A DNA stretch of 55,676 bases from an uncultured Oscillospiraceae bacterium (GTDB lineage Bacteria; Bacillota; Clostridia; Oscillospirales; Oscillospiraceae): the NCBI GenBank assembly GCA_944383205.1, contig CALWOR010000001.1, forward strand, positions 1 to 55,676, written 5' to 3'. Shown one piece after another: positions 20,221-32,284 of the stretch (position 1 is the stretch's first letter; each line of letters begins with the position of its first letter). The notes under the pieces are model-generated. The model was not told where the DNA came from. It searched no databases and saw nothing but the letters and a program-made list of their open reading frames with translations. Both the position numbers and the translations under genes were made by a program.

Positions 20221-21111
20221 TCAGCTGAGCAGCAGCTCCAGCTCTTCCACGGTCATTCCCGGCTGAAGGGCCAGATTGATGCCGTATCCGATGACCTTGG
20301 CCAGATCGGCCACCTGGCTGTCAATGTCTTTTGGGGTGACCAGCAGCCTCCGCCCGCGGTCCAGGTCAGGCAGATCCTCTGTTCCCAGCAGGTCGGCGGC
20401 CAGAGTGGCCCCATCTACCACAGTGGGCACCCCAATGGCCATCACAGGGATGCCCAGGGTCTCTCGGTTGAGGCCCAGGCGGTGATTGCCCACCCCAGAG
20501 CCCGGTGTAATCCCCGTGTCCGCGAGCTGAATGGTACGGCACAGCCGCTCCACTGACCGGGAGGCCAGAGCATCCACTGCAATGACACAGGCGGGACGGA
20601 TCGTTTCACAAACGGCCCGCACGACTTCGCCGCTCTCTACTCCGGTGCTGCCCAGCACTTCCGCGGCCAGGGAGGCCACAGGCCGGAGCGTACCGAAGTG
20701 CTCGGGGACCTGCTCTACCAGATGTCGGGTCACCAAGGTATGCTCATGGACCTTGGGACCCACGGCGTCTGGCGTGATGGAGCGGTTTCCAAGTCCGGCA
20801 ACCAGAACAAGGGCGTGGGGAGGTACCTCTTTCATCAGTTCAAAGAGTTCCCCGGCCACTGCCTGGATGGAGCGGTTAAAAATATCCTCCTCCCGACCGG
20901 CAAGTCCCTCTACCGTCAGGGTCACATAGCAGCCCTGGGGCTTACCCAGAGCCTTTTCTCCGGCCTGGTCCAGAATCCGGACCGTGGTGACCGGAAGGCC
21001 ATCCCGGAGGCCCTCCCTGGCCTCTACGCCGGAGAGCCTGGCGGCAGCTCCCGCGCTCTCCTGCCAGAGCTCCCTGGCCTCCAGCGCCAGATCGGTGCGT
21101 CTGATGCCCAT
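20221..21111 (-). CDS. gpr: Germination protease GPR
   Basis: RTDLALEA, LVAGLGNRSITPDAVGP, IAVDALA, TGITPGSGVGNHR, IGVPTVVD, LVTPKDID; divergent from rpsT as in other Firmicutes; start after GGGAGG. Confidence 0.96.
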   Translation of the reverse strand: MGIRRTDLALEARELWQESAGAAARLSGVEAREGLRDGLPVTTVRILDQAGEKALGKPQGCYVTLTVEGLAGREEDIFNRSIQAVAGELFELMKEVPPHALVLVAGLGNRSITPDAVGPKVHEHTLVTRHLVEQVPEHFGTLRPVASLAAEVLGSTGVESGEVVRAVCETIRPACVIAVDALASRSVERLCRTIQLADTGITPGSGVGNHRLGLNRETLGIPVMAIGVPTVVDGATLAADLLGTEDLPDLDRGRRLLVTPKDIDSQVADLAKVIGYGINLALQPGMTVEELELLLS

Positions 21112-21220
21112 AGTGTTCCCTCCCAAATCCCATATCTTGTGGTACTCCGTATTGATCTCTTCTATTTTTTGCGTCCCAAAGAAAACTATCCCGGGCGTAA
21201 AAAATTTTTGAAAAAAACTG

Positions 21221-21249
21221 TTGATTTTTTCTGGAACCAATGGTAAAAT
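21221..21249 (+). promoter_or_regulatory. sigmaA promoter of rpsT
   Basis: TTGATT-N17-TAAAAT with TG extension. Confidence 0.75.
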
Positions 21250-21310
21250 ACAAATCTGCACAGGCGCATTGCGCCTAATTTAACGATGAAAATCGGAGGA
21301 GGTGTTTGGT

Positions 21311-21574
21311 TTGCCGAATATTAAGTCTGCCAAGAAGCGCGTGCTGGTGTCCGAGACCAAGGCTGCGCAGAACAAGGCCGCGAAGTCCGCGCTGAAGACC
21401 GACATCAAGAAGTTTGAGGCCGCGGTGGCGGAAGGCAACCGCAGCGAGGCCGATGTCGCTTACAAGGTGGCCGTCAAGGCTGTGGATAAGGCCGCTGCTA
21501 AGGGTCTGCTGCACAAGAACAATGCCGCCAACAAGAAGAGCAATATGACCATCAAGCTGAACAAGCTGGCCTGA
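21311..21574 (+). CDS. rpsT: 30S ribosomal protein S20
   Basis: TTG start after GGAGGAGGTG; MPNIKSAKKR...DKAAAKGLLHKNNAANKKS. Confidence 0.98.
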   Translation: MPNIKSAKKRVLVSETKAAQNKAAKSALKTDIKKFEAAVAEGNRSEADVAYKVAVKAVDKAAAKGLLHKNNAANKKSNMTIKLNKLA

Positions 21575-21590
21575 TTATATTGATCGCGTG

Positions 21591-21620
21591 GAAAGCCGTC
21601 TGTTGTCAGACGGCTTTTTT
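21591..21620 (+). terminator. rpsT terminator
   Basis: AAAGCCGTCTG / CAGACGGCTTT followed by T's. Confidence 0.9.
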
Positions 21621-21665
21621 CGTTGTCCTTTGACAGGATTTTCTCTCCTTTTCTCTCTGGATTTC

Positions 21666-21834
21666 TGGTATAATATCAACAGTGCCGCACAATGTGCGGC
21701 AGGGTACTGTGTACCCGGGCGTTTGTATGCAAAACGCTGCTATTGATATTACACCATAGCCAAAATCGGCTGCGCCGATTTTACGCCGCGTCTGCGGCAT
21801 GCAAGTCTTCGTGGACTTCGGCTATGGTATAATA
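21666..21834. repeat. 169-bp multi-hairpin palindromic element (REP/MITE-like)
   Basis: Three related arms (forward, reverse, forward), six short internal hairpins, 10-bp direct repeat TGGTATAATA at both ends. Confidence 0.7.
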
Positions 21835-21869
21835 ACAGGTAGTGCCTGTGGCGGAAGGAGGGTGTACCG

Positions 21870-22733
21870 GTGAAAAGAATACTTGACTTTCCTCCGGTCT
21901 CCTTTGTGCTGGAGACGGCAGATCTCTATGGGAGGGTGGGAGTATCCCGTTCGGCGGCGGCGCTGTCCTACTTTCTGATTTTGACCCTTTTTCCTCTGCT
22001 GGTGTGTGTCAACTACTTTATCGGTCTGTTTCACCTGGATTTGGAGCATTTTCTCCGCTCTCTGGATCAGTTTCTGCCCTCTGGTGTGCTGGCCGTCATG
22101 TCCGACTATCTCTCTTATGTGGCGGTGATCCAGTCTCCCGCCCTGCTGCTGGCCAGCCTGTTTACCATTCTTATCTCCGCTTCGGCGGGGCTGCGTACCC
22201 TGCTGATGTCCATGGATCAGCTCTATGAGCGGGAAGATATCCATCCCTTCCGCCGCCTGGTTGCCAGTATCATTTTGTCCCTGCTGTTTCTGCTCACCGT
22301 CTACCTCTCGGTCATTGTCATTTTTACCGGCGACTGGTTTTTCAGCCTGCTGCAGTCTCACCTGCCGGAGTATATCATTCGCCTGCTCCCTTTGGATTCC
22401 CTGTCCGATTTGTGGATCTGGCTTCGGTATCTGCTGCTTTTTTGCTTTGTGATGCTGCTGGTGCTGATCGTCTACCGTACCGGCACGCCCAGGGGTGAGG
22501 TGAGGCGGGCGGTGGTGCTGCTCTCCTCCCTGCTGGCCTCCCTGGCCATTGTCGCCGCCTCGGCGCTGTTCTCCTGGTTTATCGGTATCTCCTCCCGATA
22601 TGCCCTGGTGTACGGGTCTCTGGCATCTCTGATAATTTTACTGGTCTGGCTCTACCTGTGCTGTACCATCCTGTTGATGGGGGCTGTTATGGGAAGGGTG
22701 ATCAGCCTGCGGATGCTGCATGCAAATGAATAA
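21870..22733 (+). CDS. YihY/virulence factor BrkB family membrane protein
   Basis: SAAALSYFLILTLFP, YALVYGSLASLIILLVWLYL..ILLMGA. Confidence 0.92.
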   Translation: MKRILDFPPVSFVLETADLYGRVGVSRSAAALSYFLILTLFPLLVCVNYFIGLFHLDLEHFLRSLDQFLPSGVLAVMSDYLSYVAVIQSPALLLASLFTILISASAGLRTLLMSMDQLYEREDIHPFRRLVASIILSLLFLLTVYLSVIVIFTGDWFFSLLQSHLPEYIIRLLPLDSLSDLWIWLRYLLLFCFVMLLVLIVYRTGTPRGEVRRAVVLLSSLLASLAIVAASALFSWFIGISSRYALVYGSLASLIILLVWLYLCCTILLMGAVMGRVISLRMLHANE

Positions 22734-22740
22734 AAGATCC

Positions 22741-22771
22741 GGGCCTTGGGAATCTCCTCAAGGCCCTTTTT
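22741..22771 (+). terminator. Terminator after yihY
   Basis: GGGCCTTG / CAAGGCCC stem followed by TTTTT. Confidence 0.8.
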
Positions 22772-22865
22772 CTGCCTTTTCTTCTGGGGAAAAATGTGTT
22801 ATCTTAATCATAAGCACAGGCTCAGGCTATGTTGCCCCGACAAAGCATAAGCTGAGGTGGTATTC

Positions 22866-25800
22866 GTGAATGATAAACTGATTCGTCAACTGAACCGAGA
22901 GATTATAGAGGCCCTTGTCTCTCGAAAATTTACCGCCGTTTCCAGCCGCAGGGCGGCCATGGCGCTGACCAAAACGCCCGGCTGGTCCGAGGGGCTGGCA
23001 TCCTTCTTCCCCATTCGGGAGCGCCTCAGCTGTACCAAGGTGCTGCAGTTGTGTACGCCTATTATGGACAGACTCTGCCCTCAGCCGCCTCAGCAGGGGT
23101 GGGGTCCCTTCTGCTATCAGTATATCTGCCGCATCATGTTCCCGCAGAATGGATTTGCTCCCGAAGCCGATCAATGTGAGGCGGGAGCCAGATTTTATCT
23201 CACCGTCCTTCAGGTACTGTTGGACCATGAGCGCGCCGCTTTGCCCTTTGACCCCATGATGGATTTTCAGTTCCTCTCAGAGGAGGAGTATTCCTCCTAT
23301 GATATGGCCCGGGAGTACCGCCGCTTCCTCTGGGCCTGGCGAGAGGAGTTTATCTATGAGCTTATGCGCCTTGGGCTGGAGGTCACTCCATTCAAGACGC
23401 TCAGTCACATTTCCGGTGTCCATTATATTGCCATGACAGCCGCCCACGGTCTGAAAGAAGCGGGGGTGGAGGTGGACCTGGCCCTTATTTCGGCTGCCGC
23501 TGCGGCACACGACATCGGAAAATTCGGCTGCCGGCCGGGAGAACGGGTGCCCTATCTCCACTATTACTACACCGACCAGTGGTTGCTGGAGCGGAAAATG
23601 GACTCTATCAGCCACATTGCCTCCAACCACTCCACCTGGGATCTGGAGCTGGAATCCCTGTCTGTGGAGTCGCTGCTGCTCATCTACGCGGACTTTCGTT
23701 CCAAGCAGGAGCGGGACAAGGACGGCAACGAGATCACCATCCTCTTTCCACTGGACGAATCTTTCCAGGTGATCCTTTCCAAACTGGACAATGTGGACGC
23801 AAAAAAGCGCCGCCGCTATGAATTTGTCTATGGAAAGCTCCATGACTTTGAGGACTATATGCGCTCCCTCGGGGTTGATGTGGATTTGACAGGTCAGCTT
23901 CAGCCTCCTGTCCCACATAAGGATACCGCACTGATGAATCCTCAGGAGACGCTGAACAGCCTGATTCTCCTGTCTGTGGAGCACAATCTGCAGTTGATGC
24001 ACATGCTGTCCAACGAGCAGAAATTCGGCAATATCATTGAAGAGGCCCGCTCGGTGAAGAGCTGGCAGCAGCTGAGAGCTTATCTCAATGTGTTCGAAGA
24101 ATACTTCACCTATCTGTCCGTGCGTCAGAAGACCCAGGCGCTCACCTTCCTCTATGAGCTTTTGATGCACCGTGAGGGCGATATCCGCCGTCAGGCCGGC
24201 GCCCTTATCGGCCAGATCATCGCCCGCTTCCACTTGGTCTACCGGAAGGAGATCCCAGCGGATGCCCAGAGCGACCCGGCGGAGGAGGTCCCCTTCACCC
24301 TGTGGGGACAGTATCTGGACATGATCATCTTCCCCGATCACAAGACCACCCAGCAGCAGCGCAGTCATATCGGCTACACCTTGAAGCTGGTGGTGGAATC
24401 CATGCTGCTTCACGCCCGACCGGGAGATATTCCCCGTTTTTTGGGAGCGCTGCTGAAATATTACGATGACCCTGAGCATACTGATGCGGACACCGCCTTC
24501 ACCCTGCTGGACGCGGCCTGTTACCTGCCGCCGAAGCACTACGGAGAGGACACCCGGGAGAAGCTGATCCGGTTTGCCGCCCACTTTGCCGGCTCCGACG
24601 ACCTGCGCCTGACCACCGCTGCCCTTCAGTTTTTGCGGGAGACCGAGCGCAATATCCCCCGTTCCCATCCCCAGATGGCCCGGATTGTGGAGATTGCACG
24701 GAATGTCAAGGGCAATGAGCTGACCACCGTCTTTTTGAAAAGCAAGATCCTGCGCCGGGCAGGCCAGGATGTGAGCGACCTGGAGCAAATCCTGTACCAT
24801 ACGGACATTACCAGCGAAGTCTTTCTGGACAATCTGAAGATCGCCACCCCCTGGATCGTCAAGGTTGCGGGCGTGGATCTGCTCCGTGATCAGGTAGACC
24901 ACGGGGCCCAGTCCCATATTCTCCACATTGCCACCCACTTCTCCAACCTGGTTAAGGTGTCTGAGCGGGTAGTGGTCCGTCATACCGCCGGTTCCGCCCT
25001 GGTGCGTACCCTCATTTCCCTGCGCCGGGATCAGCGCAACGAGGTGGTGGTGGAGCTGGGCAAGGGCCTGGAGATGGGTCAGTATCAGATTTCCAAATAC
25101 ATTCCCCAGTACCTGGGGGAGGCGGCGCTCTACCTCCACCCCAGTGAGCTGGATGAGCAGGTGCTGTGGCTTAAATCCCTTCTGGGGTCCCCAAACAACT
25201 CTGCTGTGGCCGGAGCCCTGAATACGGTGGGGATCCTGCTTCAGCACTATCCTGCCTACCGCGAGCGTTTTTCTGAGGATACCGCTGCCTATGAGGCCCG
25301 CCGCCAGGAACTGCTGGGGCTGCTTCTCCAGGGGTTGGCGCACTACCGGGAGGCGGTGCGACAGGAGGCTCTGCTGGTTATTGGCAAACTCCTTTTCAGC
25401 ACGCCCCAGCTGGATATGCAGGAAAAAGCCCGGCTGTTCTCTCTGTGCTACCGTAAGCTTCTCTTCCTGATTCAGGAGTCCCCCCGTCAGGACGGACTTA
25501 CCTTCTTTTACCGGGCTGCCGCTCTGGCCCACATCAACCGGTTTATTGCCCTGCGGCGCCTGGACCACGGTCCCTTCGCTTTTGAGACACCCCGGAAAAT
25601 TGCCTTTTTCCCGGGTACCTTTGACCCCTTTACCCTCTCCCACAAGGGGATTGTCCACGCCATTCGGGATATGGGCTTTGAGGTATATCTGGCTGTGGAT
25701 GAGTTTTCCTGGTCCAAAAAGGCCCAGCCTCACCTGATCCGCCGACAGATCGTCAATATGTCCGTGGCCGGAGATTTCCATATTCACCTCTTCCCCGACG

Positions 25801-27659
25801 ATATCCCGGTGAATATTGCAAACCCCGCCAATCTGCGTCGGCTGCTGGAGCTGTTCCCCGGGCAGGAGGTCTATATCGTGGTGGGCAGTGATGTGGTGGC
25901 CAATGCTTCCTCCTACCAGGCCCCCTCCCGGCCCTACTCCATCCACCGGATGAACCACATTATTTTCCGCCGGGCGGGAGAGCGGGAGCTTCCCCGGGAT
26001 CTGCCCATTACCGGAGATGTGATCCGCCTCCAGCTGCCCTCTCACCTGAAAGATATCAGCTCCACCCGTATCAGAGAAAATGTGGATCTGAACCGGGATA
26101 TCTCCAGCTTTGTGGACCCGGTGATTCAGGATTATATCTATCAAAACGGTCTGTATCTCCGGGACAGTCAGAACAAGCCGATGCTGGACGCGGGCGAGCT
26201 GGAATTTCAGTGGCTGGGGGCCCCTGACCCCATGCTGCTGGAGAGCATTACCGCCGGGCAGGATAACCGGGAGGTGCTCCGTTCCGCCATTGCCCAGCAG
26301 GGAGATAATGTTCTTCTGCTGCGCCACAGCCACTCCCACTCTCTGCTGGGATATATCAGCTATCGCTCCCTTACCACCTCCCAGCTGTTTGCAGCCCTGG
26401 GGAATACCGAGCTGGCCAATCGGATCCGTCTGCGGGCCTCGGGCAAGGTGCTGATGGTCACCTCTCTGGCCGCCGATACCTCCGACCGGCACAAGGATTA
26501 CCACCAGCTGCTCCTCTGTGAGCTGCTGGCCAAGGCCTTGGAGGAGGGCTGCGTCTATGCCATCTATGCTCCCTATGACGGGCATATTGCGCCCTTTATG
26601 GAGGATGTGCTTTTCCGCTTTGGATTTACAGCCCGGGAGCAGCACGGCTCCATTCTGGAGACGGATATGCACGCCCCCACCGTCCTTATTCAGAATCTGG
26701 AGACCACCATTCAGGACCCCCTCAACCGAAACCCCAGGGTCCTGTCCGCCGTGGTGCGGGGACACCGGCGTATCCAGAATGCGCTGGCCCAGCTCTACCC
26801 CGGTTCCCTGCTGCTTACTCTGTCCGCCGATGTAATCCACCAGCGGCTGCTGGAAAAAATCACCGCTTACAATGGGGTGCCCTCCGTCCCCACCTCCCCC
26901 AGAGTGCTGGGTGAGAGTATGTGTGTTCCCTACGGAAAGCTCCTGCGGGGAAAAATGGTTCCCAACACCGTGACCAAGACCATCCATACCGACAAGGTCT
27001 TCTCCCCCGATCTGTCCGAGAGCGTCATGGAGCCCTTCCCCTACTACGCCCCTATTTCCAGCCAGATCCGTACCATCAAGTCCTTCGACCGGCCGGTCAT
27101 TCTGGTGGATGACCTGATGCACCCCGGCTTCCGTTTTAAAGCCCTGGATCCTATTTTCCGCCGAGAGGGAGTTCCCATCCGTATGGTGCTGGTGGGCGTT
27201 TTGTCCGGCTACGGCAAGGACCTGATGAATGCCTGGGAGCGCCCGGTGGACAGCGTCTACTACCTGCCCACCCTGCGGCAGTGGTTTGTGGAGTCCACCC
27301 TCTTCCCCTTCATCGGGGGCAACACCGTCCGGCGGCCAAGCCCTCCGGTACCCGGATTGCTGCCCGGCATTAACCATATTCTGCCCTACGCCACCCCCGC
27401 CTACCGGGAGGAGTGTGGTCGGGAGGCGGTGTTCCAGCTGTCCAGGGCCTGCCTGGAGAGTTCGCTGGATGTGATCCGCACCTTGGAACAGGAGTATCGC
27501 ATCCTCTATGGCCGGAACCTGACCTTGTCCCGCCTGGCCGAGGCAGTCATCCTGCCCCTGTGTCCGGACAAGGGCACCTGCCTCCACTATGATCCCAATC
27601 TGTCCGCCTCTGTCTACCTGGAAAATGATCTGGAACAGCTGCTGCGGCAGAATCAATAG
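22866..27659 (+). CDS. Large multidomain protein: HD phosphohydrolase + alpha-helical repeats + NadD-like nucleotidyltransferase + GNAT-like + PRTase-like
   Basis: H...AHDIGK...H...NH...YAD (HD); FPGTFDPFTLSH, VGSD, DISSTRIRE (HIGH-family NTase); VILVDDLMHPG (PRPP loop); GTG 22866 after GAGGTG (alternative start 22857). Confidence 0.85.
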   Translation: MNDKLIRQLNREIIEALVSRKFTAVSSRRAAMALTKTPGWSEGLASFFPIRERLSCTKVLQLCTPIMDRLCPQPPQQGWGPFCYQYICRIMFPQNGFAPEADQCEAGARFYLTVLQVLLDHERAALPFDPMMDFQFLSEEEYSSYDMAREYRRFLWAWREEFIYELMRLGLEVTPFKTLSHISGVHYIAMTAAHGLKEAGVEVDLALISAAAAAHDIGKFGCRPGERVPYLHYYYTDQWLLERKMDSISHIASNHSTWDLELESLSVESLLLIYADFRSKQERDKDGNEITILFPLDESFQVILSKLDNVDAKKRRRYEFVYGKLHDFEDYMRSLGVDVDLTGQLQPPVPHKDTALMNPQETLNSLILLSVEHNLQLMHMLSNEQKFGNIIEEARSVKSWQQLRAYLNVFEEYFTYLSVRQKTQALTFLYELLMHREGDIRRQAGALIGQIIARFHLVYRKEIPADAQSDPAEEVPFTLWGQYLDMIIFPDHKTTQQQRSHIGYTLKLVVESMLLHARPGDIPRFLGALLKYYDDPEHTDADTAFTLLDAACYLPPKHYGEDTREKLIRFAAHFAGSDDLRLTTAALQFLRETERNIPRSHPQMARIVEIARNVKGNELTTVFLKSKILRRAGQDVSDLEQILYHTDITSEVFLDNLKIATPWIVKVAGVDLLRDQVDHGAQSHILHIATHFSNLVKVSERVVVRHTAGSALVRTLISLRRDQRNEVVVELGKGLEMGQYQISKYIPQYLGEAALYLHPSELDEQVLWLKSLLGSPNNSAVAGALNTVGILLQHYPAYRERFSEDTAAYEARRQELLGLLLQGLAHYREAVRQEALLVIGKLLFSTPQLDMQEKARLFSLCYRKLLFLIQESPRQDGLTFFYRAAALAHINRFIALRRLDHGPFAFETPRKIAFFPGTFDPFTLSHKGIVHAIRDMGFEVYLAVDEFSWSKKAQPHLIRRQIVNMSVAGDFHIHLFPDDIPVNIANPANLRRLLELFPGQEVYIVVGSDVVANASSYQAPSRPYSIHRMNHIIFRRAGERELPRDLPITGDVIRLQLPSHLKDISSTRIRENVDLNRDISSFVDPVIQDYIYQNGLYLRDSQNKPMLDAGELEFQWLGAPDPMLLESITAGQDNREVLRSAIAQQGDNVLLLRHSHSHSLLGYISYRSLTTSQLFAALGNTELANRIRLRASGKVLMVTSLAADTSDRHKDYHQLLLCELLAKALEEGCVYAIYAPYDGHIAPFMEDVLFRFGFTAREQHGSILETDMHAPTVLIQNLETTIQDPLNRNPRVLSAVVRGHRRIQNALAQLYPGSLLLTLSADVIHQRLLEKITAYNGVPSVPTSPRVLGESMCVPYGKLLRGKMVPNTVTKTIHTDKVFSPDLSESVMEPFPYYAPISSQIRTIKSFDRPVILVDDLMHPGFRFKALDPIFRREGVPIRMVLVGVLSGYGKDLMNAWERPVDSVYYLPTLRQWFVESTLFPFIGGNTVRRPSPPVPGLLPGINHILPYATPAYREECGREAVFQLSRACLESSLDVIRTLEQEYRILYGRNLTLSRLAEAVILPLCPDKGTCLHYDPNLSASVYLENDLEQLLRQNQ

Positions 27660-27778
27660 AAGGGTCGGCGGACTTAGATCCCCGGCCGCGAGGGAACCGA
27701 GGCGTGACAATAAAGAAGCGCAGAATTCCCGCGCAGGGGAGCTAAGGACAGAAATTCAATACTTGGAGTGATATTCTG

Positions 27779-29017
27779 ATGTATTATTACAATTATAAAG
27801 GGGCAAATATGATCTCCCTTGCCCCCGTGGAGGGCCTTGGCCCTCAGATTGCTCCCATTACCCAGGGCCCTCTGTTTGCCTTGGTGGGTGGAGATCCCGT
27901 GCTGGGCCGGGGCTCCTTTAAGGTGGTCCACCCCGGCCAGCTGAAGGCCGGCCACGGCCTGGAGAGCCTGGATGCCTCCCGGCTGCCGAAGGTGGAGGTG
28001 GATGAGGCGATCTCCGCGGCCATCCGGGAGGGCCGCCTTACTGCCGTCAACCCCAACCGTCCCGGCTGGGAGGAGCTTCTCTCTGTGTCCCACCAGAGCG
28101 GCAAGAAGAGAGTCAACATTCTGGCCATCGGAGATGTGGGGTCCACCCTGCTCACCGGGCTTAAGCTTTTGGGAGGCGATGTGATCCAGTCCATTGGGAT
28201 CTGCGATCTCAGCGATCAGATCACGGCCCGTTGGGAGTTTGAGATGGGGCAGGTCGCCCTGCCCTGGGACTATGACGCCTTCCCTGAGGTGCGGGTGGTC
28301 AAGCCGGAGGAACTGTTTGACTGTGATATGTTTGTCTTTGTGGCCTCAAAGGGCATCCCTCCCGTGGGCTCCCAGGTGAAGGATGTACGGATGTATCAGT
28401 TTGAAAACAATGCCAAAATTGTGTCCCATTATGCCAAAATGGCCCGGGCTGCCCGATTCAAGGGCCTGTGGTGTGCGGTGTCTGACCCGGTGGATCCCCT
28501 GGCCAAGACCGCTTATCTGGAGAGCAACAAGGACGAAAACGGCGTGTTTGACGGAAGAGGCCTTCGTCCGGAGCAGGTTCAGGGCTTCGGCCTTGGTGTC
28601 ATGAATGCCCGCGCAGCCTACTTTGCCAAGCGGGATCCCAAACTCGCCTCCTTCCTGACCGAGGGGCGCTCCTTCGGGCCCCATGGAACCGGGCTGTTTA
28701 TCGCAAACTCCATTGAGCACTATGACGAGGCCGTCTCCCAGGAGCTGACCCATCTTACGGTCACTGCCAACCTGATGATGCGGGAGATCGGGTTTAAGCC
28801 CTATGTGGCCCCTGCTATGTCTTCCGGGGCCCTGTCTCTGCTGCTTACCCTCCGGGGACAGTGGCACTGCGGCTCGGTGTTTCTGGATGGGGTCTATATG
28901 GGGGTCAAGAACCGCTACACCGCGGCCGGTGTGGAGACCGAATTGCTGCCCCACATTCCGGATCAGCTCTTCGGGCACATTCAGGAAGCCGCGGAGCATT
29001 TGAAGACTATTTTATAA
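27779..29017 (+). CDS. LDH/MDH-fold NAD(P)-dependent dehydrogenase-like protein with N-terminal extension
   Basis: VNILAIGDVGSTL Rossmann start, RMYQFENNAKIV, VSDPVD, GLGVMNARA, FGPHG. Confidence 0.8.
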   Translation: MYYYNYKGANMISLAPVEGLGPQIAPITQGPLFALVGGDPVLGRGSFKVVHPGQLKAGHGLESLDASRLPKVEVDEAISAAIREGRLTAVNPNRPGWEELLSVSHQSGKKRVNILAIGDVGSTLLTGLKLLGGDVIQSIGICDLSDQITARWEFEMGQVALPWDYDAFPEVRVVKPEELFDCDMFVFVASKGIPPVGSQVKDVRMYQFENNAKIVSHYAKMARAARFKGLWCAVSDPVDPLAKTAYLESNKDENGVFDGRGLRPEQVQGFGLGVMNARAAYFAKRDPKLASFLTEGRSFGPHGTGLFIANSIEHYDEAVSQELTHLTVTANLMMREIGFKPYVAPAMSSGALSLLLTLRGQWHCGSVFLDGVYMGVKNRYTAAGVETELLPHIPDQLFGHIQEAAEHLKTIL

Positions 29018-29030
29018 GAAGGTGCCCCTC

Positions 29031-30092
29031 ATGTCCCTTGTTGTCATACATCCCGCGCCCGACGCCGCCTGGGCGGATCTGCGCCTGGATGGCGTGCTTC
29101 GATATGCGCTGGAGGAGCGGGAGACGCATACGCTCCGCCGGGCGGAGGAACTGGAGGGCCTGGAGGGCAGTACCCTCCTGTTCGTACTCCCGCTGGGAGA
29201 GGCAGGCATCAATCTGGAGTATACCCGGATGCTCCTCCGCCTGCGTACCCGGCCCCACCTGCTTCAGGGCTGCACGGCTGGCATCATTGTGGATGGAGCC
29301 GGTGAGCTGTACACCAAGTCGGCGGCTGCCGAGTTGGCCCTGGCCCTCAACCGCTCGGGCTGTGCACTGCCCGGTCGTCCCCTGGTGGAGGGGACCGGAT
29401 CTCTGGCCAATTTTGCTGTACAGGCAAAAAACTTGGGTACCGACCTTATGGGGGCCTACCGCGCCGCTGCCCGGGAGCTTGTGGAAAGACTGGAGAGGGA
29501 GCGGTTTCCCCGGCGCGTTCGTCCCAAGCTGCTGGTGCTCCATGCCTCTAGCCACCATACCTCCAACACCATGGATCTGTGGTCCAGGGCAAAGGAGTCC
29601 CTGAAGGACTGCTGTGACATTCGGGAGATCGGACTGCGTAATGGGACCCTCTCTGACTGTTCCGGCTGTCCCTACACCATGTGCCTCCATTTTGGAGAGC
29701 GGGGGGGCTGCTTCTACGGCGGTGTCATGCAGGAGGAGGTCTATCCCGCCGTGCGGGAGGCGGATGCTCTGGTGCTGCTGTGTCCCAACTACAATGATGC
29801 CCTCTCCGCCAATCTCACCGCATTTATCAACCGCCTTACCGCCCTGTTCCGGCAAACCCGCTTTTATGACAAAGCGGTCTTTGCCTTGGTGGTCTCCGGT
29901 TACTCAGGAGGAGATATTCTGGCCAGGCAGGTCATTTCGGCCATGAATATGAACAAGTCCTTTTATCTCCCGCCCCATTTTGCCCTTGTGGAGACAGCCA
30001 ACTTCCCCGGACAGGCCCTGGCCCTGCCCGGAATCGAGGAGCGTCTGGAGGGATTTTCCCGGAATATCCGGAATGCCCTTCTGGCACGGTAG
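29031..30092 (+). CDS. Flavodoxin-fold NAD(P)H-dependent oxidoreductase / iron-sulfur flavoprotein-like
   Basis: C-terminal half HASSHHTSNT...CSGCPYTMCLHFGERGGC...ADALVLLCPNYNDALSANLTAFINR; N-terminal half appears to be a second, degenerate flavodoxin-like domain. Confidence 0.82.
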   Translation: MSLVVIHPAPDAAWADLRLDGVLRYALEERETHTLRRAEELEGLEGSTLLFVLPLGEAGINLEYTRMLLRLRTRPHLLQGCTAGIIVDGAGELYTKSAAAELALALNRSGCALPGRPLVEGTGSLANFAVQAKNLGTDLMGAYRAAARELVERLERERFPRRVRPKLLVLHASSHHTSNTMDLWSRAKESLKDCCDIREIGLRNGTLSDCSGCPYTMCLHFGERGGCFYGGVMQEEVYPAVREADALVLLCPNYNDALSANLTAFINRLTALFRQTRFYDKAVFALVVSGYSGGDILARQVISAMNMNKSFYLPPHFALVETANFPGQALALPGIEERLEGFSRNIRNALLAR

Positions 30093-30096
30093 AAAG

Positions 30097-30132
30097 AACG
30101 CCCGGGTACTCACACGGTACCCGGGCGTTTTT
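30097..30132. terminator. Bidirectional terminator
   Basis: AACGCCCGGGTAC / GTACCCGGGCGTT flanked by A/T tracts. Confidence 0.88.
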
Positions 30133-30140
30133 GCGAAGCT

Positions 30141-30896
30141 TTAGTCCAGATATTCCTTGGGGTCCACCTGGGTTCCGTTCAGAATGGTTTCCAGATGCAC
30201 ATGAGGTTCCACCCCAACCTCGGCGATGGCGGTGCCTCCCACGGTACCCAGCACAGAGCCGATCTCTACCGTGTCTCCCTGGGATACGGCGGTCTCCTGG
30301 GAGAGGTTACTGTACCAGGACTGAAGTCCTCCACCGTGATCCACTACGACAGTGGTGCCCATCATCTGATCGTCATAGACCTGGGTCACGGTCCCCGCGC
30401 TGATGGAACGGACCTGTACCCCTTCAGCGGCGGCAATGTCCAGCCCGCCGTGGGTACGCCAATCTCCCATGGTGGGATCCAGAGACAGGGTTTCCACAGA
30501 AAAATCCCGCAGTACAGCCCCGCTTACCGGCCAGGTGAAGACATCGGATACTGTGCCGCTCTGCTCCTGGTCGGTTTCGGCATCAGCCAGAGGTTCAGGA
30601 TCATCCGGTTGGGTCTGCTGGGTCTGCTCCACGACCTCCGGCTCCAGGGTTTCTTTGGGCTGGTTGGACTCAGTAGAGGGGACCACCGGGGTCACCGGAC
30701 GCTGGACACTCTGGTCCGGAATGGTCACAGAGGCGCCTCCCCCAGCCTGGGTGGAAGAGCCGGTGTTCAGCGCCACCGTCTGGAGCAGATAGTACCCCGA
30801 AATCCCTATGGCGGCTACGCACAGGAACAGGACGATGTAGAACCCTCTCCCCAGCACGAAGTCGCCCAGTTTCTTCATAAAGCCTTGGTTTTTCAC
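30141..30896 (-). CDS. spoIIQ: M23/LytM peptidase, probable SpoIIQ
   Basis: N-terminal TM helix (GFYIVLFLCVAAIG), acidic linker, HGGLD, YSNL, HVHLE; sigF-type promoter upstream. Confidence 0.75.
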   Translation of the reverse strand: MKNQGFMKKLGDFVLGRGFYIVLFLCVAAIGISGYYLLQTVALNTGSSTQAGGGASVTIPDQSVQRPVTPVVPSTESNQPKETLEPEVVEQTQQTQPDDPEPLADAETDQEQSGTVSDVFTWPVSGAVLRDFSVETLSLDPTMGDWRTHGGLDIAAAEGVQVRSISAGTVTQVYDDQMMGTTVVVDHGGGLQSWYSNLSQETAVSQGDTVEIGSVLGTVGGTAIAEVGVEPHVHLETILNGTQVDPKEYLD

Positions 30897-30914
30897 AAAA
30901 CCACCTCCAAAGGC

Positions 30915-30944
30915 TATTGTGGACAGAGCGCTGGCTGGTTATAC
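30915..30944 (-). promoter_or_regulatory. sigF-type promoter of the spoIIQ-like gene
   Basis: GTATA-N15-GTCCACAATA. Confidence 0.65.
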
Positions 30945-30968
30945 CAGGAAGACAAAAATTTTCCCGGA

Positions 30969-30997
30969 TAGACGATGTTCCAATTTTGTGCTATACT
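30969..30997 (+). promoter_or_regulatory. sigmaA promoter of the M16 peptidase gene
   Basis: TAGACG-N17-TATACT with TG extension. Confidence 0.65.
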
Positions 30998-31033
30998 TCT
31001 TCCATCGATATGGAACTACTGCAGGAGGTCCGT

Positions 31034-32284
31034 ATGTATCAGCAGATTACATTGCCGAACGGAGCCCGACTTCTTACCCAATATCTGCCCCAGGCCCAGT
31101 CAGCGGCGCTGGGCTTTTTTGTGGGCGTGGGGTCTCGACACGAGGCGGCGGAGGAGAACGGCGCCGCCCACTTTATTGAGCATATGCTTTTCAAAGGCAC
31201 TGCCCGGCGCTCCGCGGGGCAGCTGGCCCGGGACATGGACGCTGTGGGGGGGCAGGTGAACGCCTATACCACCAAGGAGCACACCTGCTTTTATGCCCGC
31301 ACTCTGGGCAGTCATTTGGACCGGGGGATGGATATTCTGGCCGATATGTTGTTTCACTCCCGATTCAGCCAGGAGGATGTGGATCTGGAGCGGGGGGTCA
31401 TTTTGGAAGAGATCGATATGTACGAGGATACCCCCGAGGATCTGGTGGCCGAGCGGCTGTCCGCCGCAGTTTACAAGGGGACGGCTCTGGCACGGCCTAT
31501 TCTGGGGCGGCAGTCCACCCTGGAGGGAATGAGCGGACCCTGGCTGGCGGACTGGCAGAGGCGACACTACCACGGAGGGAACATGGTGGCCTCCCTGGCA
31601 GGCAACTTTACAGATGGACAGGTACAGCAGCTCACAGATCTGCTGGCCGCTCTGAAACCGGGAACCCCGTCGCGGATCAGCCCGGTCACTTACCGCCCCG
31701 CCGTCACCGCCAAAAAGAAGGCCATTGAGCAAAATCACCTGATTTTGGCCTTCCCCGCCCCCAACTACCTGGATCAGCGCCGCCAACAGGTAACTTTGCT
31801 CAATGCCCTGCTGGGGGGCGGCTGCTCCTCGCGGCTTTTTCAGCAGCTGCGGGAGCAGCGGGGGCTTTGCTATACCGTCTACTCCTTTGTGTCAGACCAC
31901 GAGGACACCGGCCTTCTGGGCATCTATGTGGGCCTTAACCAGGAACAGGAGCGCGCTGCTCTGGATTTGGCTCGGGCGGTGGTCTCCGACCTGGCTGACC
32001 ACGGACCCACCCAGGAGGAAGTGGACCGGGTGCGGGAGCAGGCCAAGGCCAATTTGCTCATGGGTGCGGAATCGGTCCAGGCCCGGATGAGCCACCTGGG
32101 GGGCTCTGCTCTGCTGTATGGGAAAATCAGGGAGACCGAGGAGCTGGTGGAGCTCTACGATGCTGTGACCCGGGATCAACTCCGGGATCTGGCTGGGGAG
32201 CTGTTTCAAATGGACCGGGCCTCCCTGTCTGCGGTAGGCCGGGTGTCCCCGGTGGGAGACTACGCCGCCTGGCTTGGGCGGTAA
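31034..32284 (+). CDS. M16 (pitrilysin) family zinc peptidase
   Basis: GAAHFIEHMLFKGT (HxxEH), NAYTTKEHT, SRLFQQLREQRGLCY; RBS AGGAGGT before ATG 31034. Confidence 0.95.
   Translation: MYQQITLPNGARLLTQYLPQAQSAALGFFVGVGSRHEAAEENGAAHFIEHMLFKGTARRSAGQLARDMDAVGGQVNAYTTKEHTCFYARTLGSHLDRGMDILADMLFHSRFSQEDVDLERGVILEEIDMYEDTPEDLVAERLSAAVYKGTALARPILGRQSTLEGMSGPWLADWQRRHYHGGNMVASLAGNFTDGQVQQLTDLLAALKPGTPSRISPVTYRPAVTAKKKAIEQNHLILAFPAPNYLDQRRQQVTLLNALLGGGCSSRLFQQLREQRGLCYTVYSFVSDHEDTGLLGIYVGLNQEQERAALDLARAVVSDLADHGPTQEEVDRVREQAKANLLMGAESVQARMSHLGGSALLYGKIRETEELVELYDAVTRDQLRDLAGELFQMDRASLSAVGRVSPVGDYAAWLGR

What the first reader, a model, noticed from the sequence alone, without database searches (positions are those of the whole stretch)
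22866..30092. Uncharacterised three-gene system: giant HD/NTase/GNAT/PRTase protein, altered dehydrogenase and Fe-S flavoprotein
Seen: three co-oriented genes bracketed by terminators (22741-22771 and 30097-30132). Gene 1 (~1600 aa) joins an intact-looking HD domain (HD at 23508-23513), about 600 aa of Leu-rich helical sequence, a NadD/CoaD-like nucleotidyltransferase (GTFDPFTLSH near 25610, ISSTRIR near 26055), a GNAT-like segment and a C-terminal PRTase-like domain (VDD near 27105). Known: pairing a nucleotidyltransferase with an HD hydrolase is the writer/eraser logic of GlnD and RelA/SpoT, but those use a different NTase fold. PRTase followed by a NadD-type adenylyltransferase is how NAD is built. 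Inference: either a bifunctional signalling enzyme that makes and breaks a nucleotide messenger or modification under metabolite control, or an assembly line for an NAD-like dinucleotide used by the two redox partners. I know no characterised protein with this architecture.
Basis: partly seen in the sequence, partly recalled or inferred. Interest (0 to 1): 0.88.

Follow-up and report, generated by a model that had tools for sequence, protein, structure and literature searches.

The report
Inseparable giant-enzyme trio of Clostridia
Three genes that occur together or not at all in anaerobic bacteria (a 1,597-residue five-domain nucleotide enzyme, an altered lactate-dehydrogenase-like protein and a predicted iron-sulfur flavoprotein) likely make, destroy and use a private NAD-like molecule, a function that is untested.

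Summary
The three genes, the motifs and both terminators are at the stated places. Confident structure models give gene 1 an HD domain with six conserved metal ligands, about 540 residues of HEAT repeats, a NadD fold (Z about 20) and a poorly conserved GNAT fold (Z about 13). The PRTase assignment rests on motif and weak profile evidence only. The trio behaves as one unit: in 300 Clostridia genomes all three genes hit the same 22 and none of the other 278, and 131 of 138 evaluable loci keep both partners nearby. It does not replace housekeeping NadD (28 of 30 carriers have one). It does not track lysine fermentation, selenocysteine, hydroxyacyl-CoA dehydratase, molybdenum cofactor or butyrate CoA-transferase; the nitrogen-gene neighbourhood is weak. 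Best reading (0.38): gene 1 makes and proofreads an NAD-like dinucleotide for the two redox partners. A nucleotide messenger with redox-sensing partners is a close rival (0.30). Seven literature searches found no characterised member. The scan met this family before, in 17 other genomes.

The parts
22741..22771 (+). Intrinsic-terminator-like hairpin plus T run ending the upstream yihY-like gene
   Evidence: z -3.2
22777..22805 (+). Predicted sigma-A promoter: TTTTCT, 17 nt, TATCTT, with TG at 22797-22798 (extended -10)
   Evidence: sequence; TGnTAnnnT found upstream of gene 1 in 63 of 68 related loci against 10% of shuffles; these loci are close relatives
22866..27659 (+). Gene 1, 1,597 aa from the likely start (P0001 is the 1,600-aa form from 22857)
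22866..23276 (+). Gene 1 N-terminal helical region, poorly conserved
   Evidence: model; conservation 0.29
23277..23891 (+). Gene 1 HD phosphohydrolase domain; H184, H218, D219, H235, H258, D279
23934..25565 (+). Gene 1 HEAT-repeat solenoid, residues about 360-903
25590..26180 (+). Gene 1 NadD/NMNAT-fold nucleotidyltransferase; GTFDP, (S/T)xxH, DEFSWSK, GSD, Y1020, SSTxIR
26181..26681 (+). Gene 1 GNAT fold, poorly conserved, no CoA-binding motif seen
26682..27656 (+). Gene 1 type I PRTase-like domain with C-terminal helices; loop DDLMHPGFR here, mostly DDLLHKGYR in the family
   Evidence: fold not confirmed by a structure search
27779..29017 (+). Gene 2, 412 aa, LDH/MDH-like with a 100-residue N-terminal extension; invariant GDVG, R204, D236, M275, R278, H302
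29022..30092 (+). Gene 3, FMN-reductase/flavodoxin-fold protein with four invariant Cys (C-x2-C-x4-C-x8-C) and an extra N-terminal half; likely start ATG 29031 (inferred from the ribosome-binding site)
30094..30132 (.). 17-pair hairpin between gene 3 and the convergent downstream gene; likely a two-way terminator
   Evidence: z -7.3

Best explanation
The three genes are one unit, and gene 1 likely makes and proofreads a private NAD-like dinucleotide that the dehydrogenase and flavoprotein partners would use. Shown: joint occurrence of the three genes, the folds, and conservation of the catalytic-type residues. Inferred steps: (1) the PRTase-like domain joins PRPP to an unknown base, or only senses PRPP or a nucleotide; (2) the NadD-fold domain adds a nucleotidyl group to that mononucleotide, giving a base-ribose-PP-nucleoside; (3) the HD domain cleaves wrong or surplus product, as YqeK does for NadD; (4) the LDH-like protein binds the dinucleotide and a 2-oxo or 2-hydroxy acid, and the flavoprotein carries the electrons on through FMN and an Fe-S cluster; (5) the HEAT repeats hold the parts together and the GNAT fold is structural. 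The direction is open: the two redox enzymes could instead make the base for gene 1.
For: One unit: the same 22 of 300 class genomes carry each gene and 0 of the other 278 carry gene 2 or 3; 131 of 138 evaluable loci and 29 of 30 lineages keep both partners nearby; 4 of 4 genomes with a split cassette hold the missing partners elsewhere. Closed module: no other neighbour family reaches more than 4 of 34 lineages except generic ABC ATPases (7). NadD fold scores above CoaD (Z 17.3-20.2 for NadD/NMNAT entries against 15.1-15.4 for CoaD); W952 is in 116 of 116 and H929 in 106 of 116; Y1020 is at least 93% conserved and lies where NadD has its ring-stacking Trp (mapping recalled). A separate canonical NadD exists in 28 of 30 carriers, and a NadD-YqeK fusion fragment in this genome, so the product is probably not bulk NAD. 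Gene 2 keeps the LDH substrate residues but has, in 145 of 145 sequences, Asp in the glycine loop, Met for the Asp partner of the catalytic His, and Asp for the conserved Asn: fixed changes around the cofactor site. Precedents read as passages: the HD domain YqeK cleaves NadD's wrong dinucleotides (PMC9426524); NMNAT turns a pyrazinecarboxamide mononucleotide into an NAD analogue (PMC9307979).
Against: No substrate, product or activity is shown. The PRTase assignment is weak; its phosphate loop is H-K-G-Y-R rather than D/T-T-G-x-T, and the second Asp is kept in only 99 of 116. Loss of the His-Asp pair could equally mean that gene 2 is a slow enzyme or a sensor. The HD domain is not close to YqeK (2 of 33 members match TIGR00488, best E 0.022). 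No gene for making or importing an unusual base travels with the trio. A 540-residue scaffold and opposing activities in one chain fit regulation at least as well.
Confidence: 0.38

Rival explanations
1. Gene 1 is a bifunctional signalling enzyme: the NadD-fold domain writes and the HD domain erases a nucleotide messenger; the PRTase-like domain senses PRPP or nucleotides; genes 2 and 3 dock on the HEAT repeats and report NADH/2-oxoacid level and redox or oxygen state.
For: Opposing, equally conserved sites in one chain (HD 0.60, NadD 0.59); altered PRT loop, as in regulatory PRT domains such as PurR and PyrR (recalled); gene 2 lacks the His-partner Asp in 145 of 145; conserved housekeeping-type promoter (63 of 68); AmtB and glutamate synthase genes lie between genes 1 and 2 in two genomes, and glutamate dehydrogenase lies near the cassette in 4 of 34 lineages.
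Against: No receptor, regulator or output gene travels with the trio; the GNAT fold shows no CoA motif; the nitrogen neighbourhood is no stronger than that of TypA (4-5 lineages); no P-II was found in this 77%-complete genome.
Confidence: 0.3
2. The trio is a repair or salvage module: it collects damaged or non-standard pyridine or purine nucleotides, cleaves them (HD), converts the base or sugar by redox steps (genes 2 and 3) and rebuilds a normal nucleotide (PRTase-like and NadD-like domains).
For: NadD-YqeK is a damage-control pair (PMC9426524); patchy, non-essential-looking distribution (18 of 120 in the family; 22 of 300 in the class); likely constitutive promoter.
Against: Carriers already have canonical NadD (28 of 30); repair enzymes seldom need a strict three-way partnership or a large scaffold (general knowledge).
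Confidence: 0.15
3. Gene 1 activates a small acid as an adenylate and transfers it through the GNAT fold to a protein or tRNA (CitC or TmcAL logic, recalled), with HD removing the modification.
For: A nucleotidyltransferase next to a GNAT fold; a viral 'citrate lyase ligase' appears at rank 15 of the viral fold search (E 3.5e-4).
Against: All 45 top rows of the structural second look are NadD/NMNAT entries; the GNAT fold is nearly as variable as the N-terminus (0.33 against 0.29) with 3 positions at 93% or more.
Confidence: 0.07
4. Gene 1 is simply an extra NaMN/NMN adenylyltransferase making ordinary NAD(P), as its database names say, and the neighbours are ordinary redox enzymes.
For: Source names include 'nicotinate-nucleotide adenylyltransferase'; NadD fold; 2 of 30 carriers lacked a NadD over cut-off (one is this incomplete genome, which has a fragment at a contig end).
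Against: It scores 34.7 bits against cut-offs of 112-197 for the NadD models; 28 of 30 carriers have canonical NadD; this reading leaves four other domains and the strict co-occurrence unexplained.
Confidence: 0.08

Closest known systems
NadD-YqeK pair and fusion of Firmicutes and mycoplasmas (PMC9426524, passages read)
   Same: A NadD-fold nucleotidyltransferase and an HD hydrolase in one chain; NF005519 (PRK07152) matches residues 913-1106 weakly.
   Different: HD comes first and is about 570 residues away; it is closer to the DVU_1551/TIGR00295/HDIG models than to YqeK; HEAT, GNAT and PRTase-like parts are added; two redox partners always co-occur; it coexists with canonical NadD.
GlnD (UTase/UR) and RelA/SpoT bifunctional enzymes (features recalled)
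   Same: A synthetase-type and an HD domain in one chain, followed by domains that could bind ligands.
   Different: The transferase is of the HxGH Rossmann-like class, not the DNA polymerase beta class; no ACT or TGS domain was found; TIGR01693 finds no GlnD over cut-off in this genome.
DVU_1551-family NTP transferase (NF045665)
   Same: Best family match of the HD domain (30 of 33 members, best E 1.9e-7); also an NTP transferase joined to HD.
   Different: Only the HD part matches (19 bits against a cut-off of 315); no link to moaA (10 of 18 carriers against 58 of 102 non-carriers).
L-lactate/malate dehydrogenase family (gene 2)
   Same: Profile hits to L-LDH, MDH and L-HicDH structures (best E 2.8e-9); the equivalents of Arg109, Arg171 and His195 are invariant (numbering recalled).
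   Different: Asp168 is Met, Asn140 is Asp, the glycine loop carries an invariant Asp, the active-site loop is longer, and most members have a 100-residue N-terminal extension; far below the L-LDH cut-off (17.6 against 303.55 bits).
Iron-sulfur flavoprotein (Isf) / NADPH-dependent FMN reductase family (gene 3)
   Same: PF03358 over cut-off at residues 168-322; four invariant Cys in a compact motif (132 of 132).
   Different: Spacing is C-x2-C-x4-C-x8-C against C-x2-C-x2-C-x5-7-C in Isf (recalled); an extra conserved N-terminal half of about 165 residues; no solved relative better than E 0.34.
Cofactor-plus-user operons such as lactate racemase lar (recalled, not tested)
   Same: A closed set of genes in which a nucleotide-building enzyme travels with the redox enzyme that would need its product.
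   Different: No shared protein family was found; this is an analogy of logic only.

Membership tests
NadD/NMNAT adenylyltransferases | Rossmann-like nucleotidyltransferase fold with (H/T)xGH and SxxxxR motifs | tested here: met
   Z 17.3-20.2, rmsd 2.2-3.5 A over 168-205 residues; motif is (S/T)x(S/G)H with H in 106 of 116
NadD/NMNAT adenylyltransferases | Score over the curated NadD cut-off | tested here: not met
   30.6 bits against 112.45 (TIGR00482); 34.7 against 150 (NF000840)
NadD/NMNAT adenylyltransferases | Adenylates NaMN or NMN | not testable with these tools
   needs an assay
NadD-YqeK fusion | HD domain of the YqeK (TIGR00488) family | tested here: not met
   2 of 33 members match, best E 0.022; other HD models match 17-30 of 33
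NadD-YqeK fusion | Two-domain NadD-then-HD protein serving as the cell's NadD | tested here: not met
   order reversed, five domains; 28 of 30 carriers have a separate NadD
HD phosphohydrolase superfamily | H...HD...H...H...D metal ligands on a helical fold | tested here: met
   each ligand in 109-111 of 116; YhaM Z 10.5, rmsd 3.5 A, 142 residues; PF01966 just under cut-off
GlnD / RelA-SpoT | DNA polymerase beta class nucleotidyltransferase or synthetase domain | tested here: not met
   the transferase domain has the NadD fold
GlnD / RelA-SpoT | ACT/TGS sensor domains | tested here: not met
   no such Pfam or NCBIfam match on gene 1; the C-terminal parts model as GNAT and PRT-like
GNAT acetyltransferases | GNAT fold | tested here: met
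   Z 11.8-13.7 to many GNATs over model residues 213-374
GNAT acetyltransferases | CoA pyrophosphate motif R/Q-x-x-G-x-G/A (recalled) | tested here: not met
   not seen by eye in the 20 of 116 sequences printed; domain conservation 0.33
Type I phosphoribosyltransferases | PRPP loop: four hydrophobic, two acidic, then T/S-G-x-T | tested here: inconclusive
   hydrophobic run and first Asp kept (112 of 116), Gly 102 of 116, tail changed to H-K-G-Y-R; one member has DDILDTGNR
Type I phosphoribosyltransferases | PRT fold | tested here: inconclusive
   strand-helix order fits; 16 of 34 members match PF00156; hhalign E 4e-4 to an HPRT-type group, control domains E 0.07 or worse; fold lists were filled by other domains
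L-lactate dehydrogenase (gene 2) | Arg109, Arg171, His195 equivalents | tested here: met
   R204, R278, H302 in 145 of 145
L-lactate dehydrogenase (gene 2) | His195-Asp168 pair and Asn140 | tested here: not met
   M275 and D236 in 145 of 145
Isf iron-sulfur flavoproteins (gene 3) | Flavodoxin-like FMN fold with a four-Cys cluster motif | tested here: inconclusive
   PF03358 met, four Cys invariant, spacing differs from the recalled Isf motif; no structure was predicted for gene 3

The most novel reading that the evidence does not exclude
A widespread but patchy group of anaerobic Bacillota runs an undescribed nucleotide circuit: one giant scaffolded enzyme builds and destroys a natural NAD-like dinucleotide other than NAD(P), which a dedicated dehydrogenase and Fe-S flavoprotein use as a private redox cofactor or read as a signal.
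Probability: 0.45. Interest if true: 0.92.

Novelty: categorically new. Interest (0 to 1): 0.72.

Why it matters
Every fold is familiar, but the assembly fits no family tested, and the three genes are gained or lost together across at least eight families of Clostridia and three families outside that class. The label 'categorically new' refers to this assembly; a new chemistry is not shown. If the product is an NAD-like molecule other than NAD(P), it would be a natural separate redox currency or a new messenger in gut and sludge anaerobes. The trio is compact, has its own promoter and terminator, and has clear catalytic residues to mutate, so the question can be tested directly. The database names ('cytidyltransferase-related domain protein', 'nicotinate-nucleotide adenylyltransferase', 'lactate dehydrogenase') hide at least 7,237 sequence clusters of unknown function.

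Tried and rejected
Pathway links, tested in one sample of 120 family genomes (18 carriers, 102 non-carriers; kin are not independent): lysine 5,6-aminomutase 1 of 18 full matches plus one weak partial, against 7 of 102; selA 2 of 18 against 13 of 102; 2-hydroxyacyl-CoA dehydratase 8 of 18 against 48 of 102; moaA 10 of 18 against 58 of 102; butyryl-CoA:acetate CoA-transferase 5 of 18 against 27 of 102. None tracks the trio. Sporulation: the window's neighbours include gpr-like and M23-like genes, but Spo0A passes its cut-off in only 1 of 5 carriers outside the class, and flanks vary. Nitrogen sensing: raised from the neighbours (note), then weakened: GDH in 4 of 34 lineages, Amt with glutamate synthase in 1, P-II-like in 1, GlnA in 0, against TypA in 5; the 'GltD' neighbour is NfnB-like. 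Housekeeping NadD: rejected. Structured RNA in the gene 1-2 spacer: no Rfam or tRNA hit in the window; the spacer holds a dispersed repeat. Mobile element: no viral contig matched one HD-domain query; the single plasmid-database hit is a 2.6 Mb record without annotation there. Fusions: none of the ORFs in my loci hit two of the three profiles; none among proteins of 2,828-5,000 aa (weak evidence). Expression: contigs of two RNA libraries from one study cover genes, spacers and neighbours alike, so carried-over DNA cannot be excluded; not used. Complex prediction (HEAT region with gene 2) was not available, so binding between the proteins is untested. The ESM Atlas gave no answer. PurF-type PRTases were not among the groups compared (23 proteins from 30 loci).
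Full report
Numbering: residues of gene 1 count from GTG 22857 (P0001, 1,600 aa); the likely start is residue 4 (22866).

1. Observation. Three co-oriented ORFs lie at 22857-27659, 27779-29017 and 29022-30092. The HD, GTFDPFTLSH, ISSTRIR and VDD motifs are at 23508, 25614, 26055 and 27105. Hairpins at 22741-22766 and 30094-30132 fold better than all 200 shuffles each. An extended -10 element precedes gene 1 in 63 of 68 close relatives against 10% of shuffles; in the window it is TG-T-TATCTT at 22797-22805. Each gene is single-copy in this 77%-complete genome. The closest named relatives are Oscillospiraceae such as Lawsonibacter, Flintibacter and Pseudoflavonifractor, at 67-95% identity.

2. 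Anatomy of gene 1. Both halves fold with mean pLDDT about 92.6 and pTM 0.90. After a variable helical N-terminus comes an HD domain: six metal ligands are each kept in 109-111 of 116 full-length sequences, the best HD fold row is YhaM (Z 10.5), and the best family models are DVU_1551, TIGR00295 and HDIG rather than YqeK. Residues 379-903 match HEAT-repeat proteins such as PP2A-A, importins and CAND1 (Z up to 13.2); such scores for repeats show only the fold class. Residues 912-1108 have the NadD/NMNAT fold (Z up to 20.2, above CoaD at about 15), with W952 invariant and H929 in 106 of 116. Residues 1112-1273 have a GNAT fold (Z up to 13.7) but conservation of 0.33, close to the N-terminus at 0.29 and far below HD at 0.60 and NadD at 0.59, and no CoA motif in the 20 sequences printed. 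The last 325 residues are conserved (0.53) and carry a type I PRTase-like loop. Support for that fold is modest: 16 of 34 members match PF00156, HPRT is the best PDB sequence hit (E 0.07) and the best of eight PRTase groups by hhalign (E 4e-4, probability 34%), and no fold-search row named a PRTase because other domains filled the lists.

3. The partners. Gene 2 is LDH/MDH-like. In 145 of 145 sequences it keeps R204, R278 and H302, the equivalents of LDH Arg109, Arg171 and His195 (numbering recalled), but has Met where LDH has the His-partner Asp, Asp where LDH has Asn140, and an Asp inside the glycine loop. Gene 3 has an FMN-reductase domain with four Cys invariant in 132 of 132 and an extra conserved N-terminal half.

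4. Distribution and co-occurrence. Gene 1 has at least 7,237 relatives at 90% clustering and 331 at E below 1e-30 at 50% clustering. It occurs in 9 of 301 phylum genomes, 22 of 300 class genomes (a 23rd hit, G530, is a NadD-sized partial match and was dropped; G387 was not scored) and 19 of 121 family genomes. Profiles of genes 2 and 3 hit exactly the same 22 class genomes. The profiles were built partly from those genomes, so the informative count is 0 of 278 non-carriers. Of 186 loci in 34 gene 1 lineages, 138 have at least 3.5 kb downstream; 135 hold gene 2 and 131 hold both. Many are close kin (89 in one lineage); by lineage the count is 29 of 30. Of the seven exceptions, four are genomes that hold the missing partners elsewhere (one such gene 3 has an internal TGA), one is a second copy in a genome with a full trio, and two are metagenome contigs that could not be followed up. 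Named members include Faecalispora sporosphaeroides, Clostridium merdae, Enterocloster hominis, Acetoanaerobium noterae, Anoxynatronum and Proteocatella.

5. What it is not linked to. A canonical NadD over cut-off exists in 28 of 30 carriers, and this genome has the distal part of a NadD-YqeK fusion at a contig end. Five pathway markers do not track the trio in the family sample (counts under Tried and rejected). Flanking genes change from lineage to lineage. Glutamate dehydrogenase is nearby in 4 of 34 lineages, and Amt with glutamate synthase splits the cassette in two genomes of one lineage, but TypA does as well as GDH. The nitrogen link is therefore a weak lead.

6. Mechanism. The facts to explain are a closed three-gene unit, a NadD-like site that is not needed for bulk NAD, an equally conserved hydrolase in the same chain, and a dehydrogenase with fixed changes around its cofactor and catalytic sites. 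The simplest joint account is that gene 1 makes an NAD-like dinucleotide, trims wrong or surplus product, and supplies genes 2 and 3 (0.38). Two published precedents fit single steps: YqeK cleaves the cytosine and uracil analogues that NadD makes in error (PMC9426524; five passages including the abstract), and NMNAT converts a pyrazinecarboxamide mononucleotide into an NAD analogue (PMC9307979; two passages). That a purine-type PRTase makes that mononucleotide is recalled, not read. A messenger with genes 2 and 3 as sensors (0.30) explains the scaffold and the altered PRT loop better but lacks any co-travelling output gene. Repair or salvage (0.15), a spare NadD (0.08) and acyl-adenylate transfer (0.07) follow.

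7. Known or new. The domains belong to known folds, but membership tests for NadD, NadD-YqeK, GlnD, RelA/SpoT, active GNAT and L-LDH each fail on a defining feature. No solved structure covers more than one domain. Literature: the database name alone or with Clostridium gives 0 papers; domain combinations give 0; a loose search gave only unrelated listings; two searches were for precedents. The library lacks most subscription journals, and supplements were not searched, so locus-tag mentions in omics tables could exist. The scan has noted this family in 17 other genomes, and one note mentions nitrogen genes; these are unchecked AI notes and are not counted as evidence.

8. Verdict. Real, strictly conserved as a trio, uncharacterised as far as searched, and directly testable. 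Interest 0.72.

Noticed in passing
window 27681-27745: The spacer between genes 1 and 2 holds a short repeat that recurs on five other contigs of this genome (C28, C34, C64, C171, C185) and is present in some close relatives but absent in others, where the gap is about 18 nt. Probably a dispersed REP-like element; no Rfam match.
   Followed up: partly
window 23277-27710, minus strand: A 1,477-codon open frame runs antisense to gene 1. Such frames reach 1,000 codons in 24 of 154 loci and scale with GC content (r 0.75), so it is probably a by-product of codon bias.
   Followed up: yes
L123:7918-13236 and L124:12243-17446: An ammonium transporter and a three-gene glutamate synthase are inserted between gene 1 and gene 2 in two genomes of different genera of one family.
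   Followed up: partly
P0205, P0233, P0235, P0242: A long-branched subgroup of full-length gene 1 relatives has lost the HD ligands and, in most, the transferase motifs as well: likely inactive paralogues.
   Followed up: no
P0193, P0202, P0203, P0204, P0213, P0220, P0234, P0247: A separate clade has Gln for the transferase His, Arg for the loop Lys, and in several members a more standard PRT loop such as DDILDTGNR; it may use another substrate.
   Followed up: no
L143:7164-12224: Genome G419 has a second, divergent copy of gene 1 with intact motifs but without genes 2 and 3 next to it; its neighbours are a YegS-like kinase and an APH-family phosphotransferase.
   Followed up: partly
G000:C59, contig end near 9799: The genome's ordinary NadD is fused to a YqeK-type HD domain and is cut by the contig end.
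   Followed up: partly
L146 (NZ_CP154629.1): A 2.63 Mb Acetoanaerobium noterae record filed as a plasmid carries the trio; its size suggests a chromosome.
   Followed up: no
window 20221-22733 and 30141-32284: Flanks here look like gpr, rpsT, a YihY/BrkB-family membrane protein, a convergent M23-like gene and an M16-like peptidase (labels other than YihY judged from sequence); this setting is kept only among close Oscillospiraceae.
   Followed up: partly
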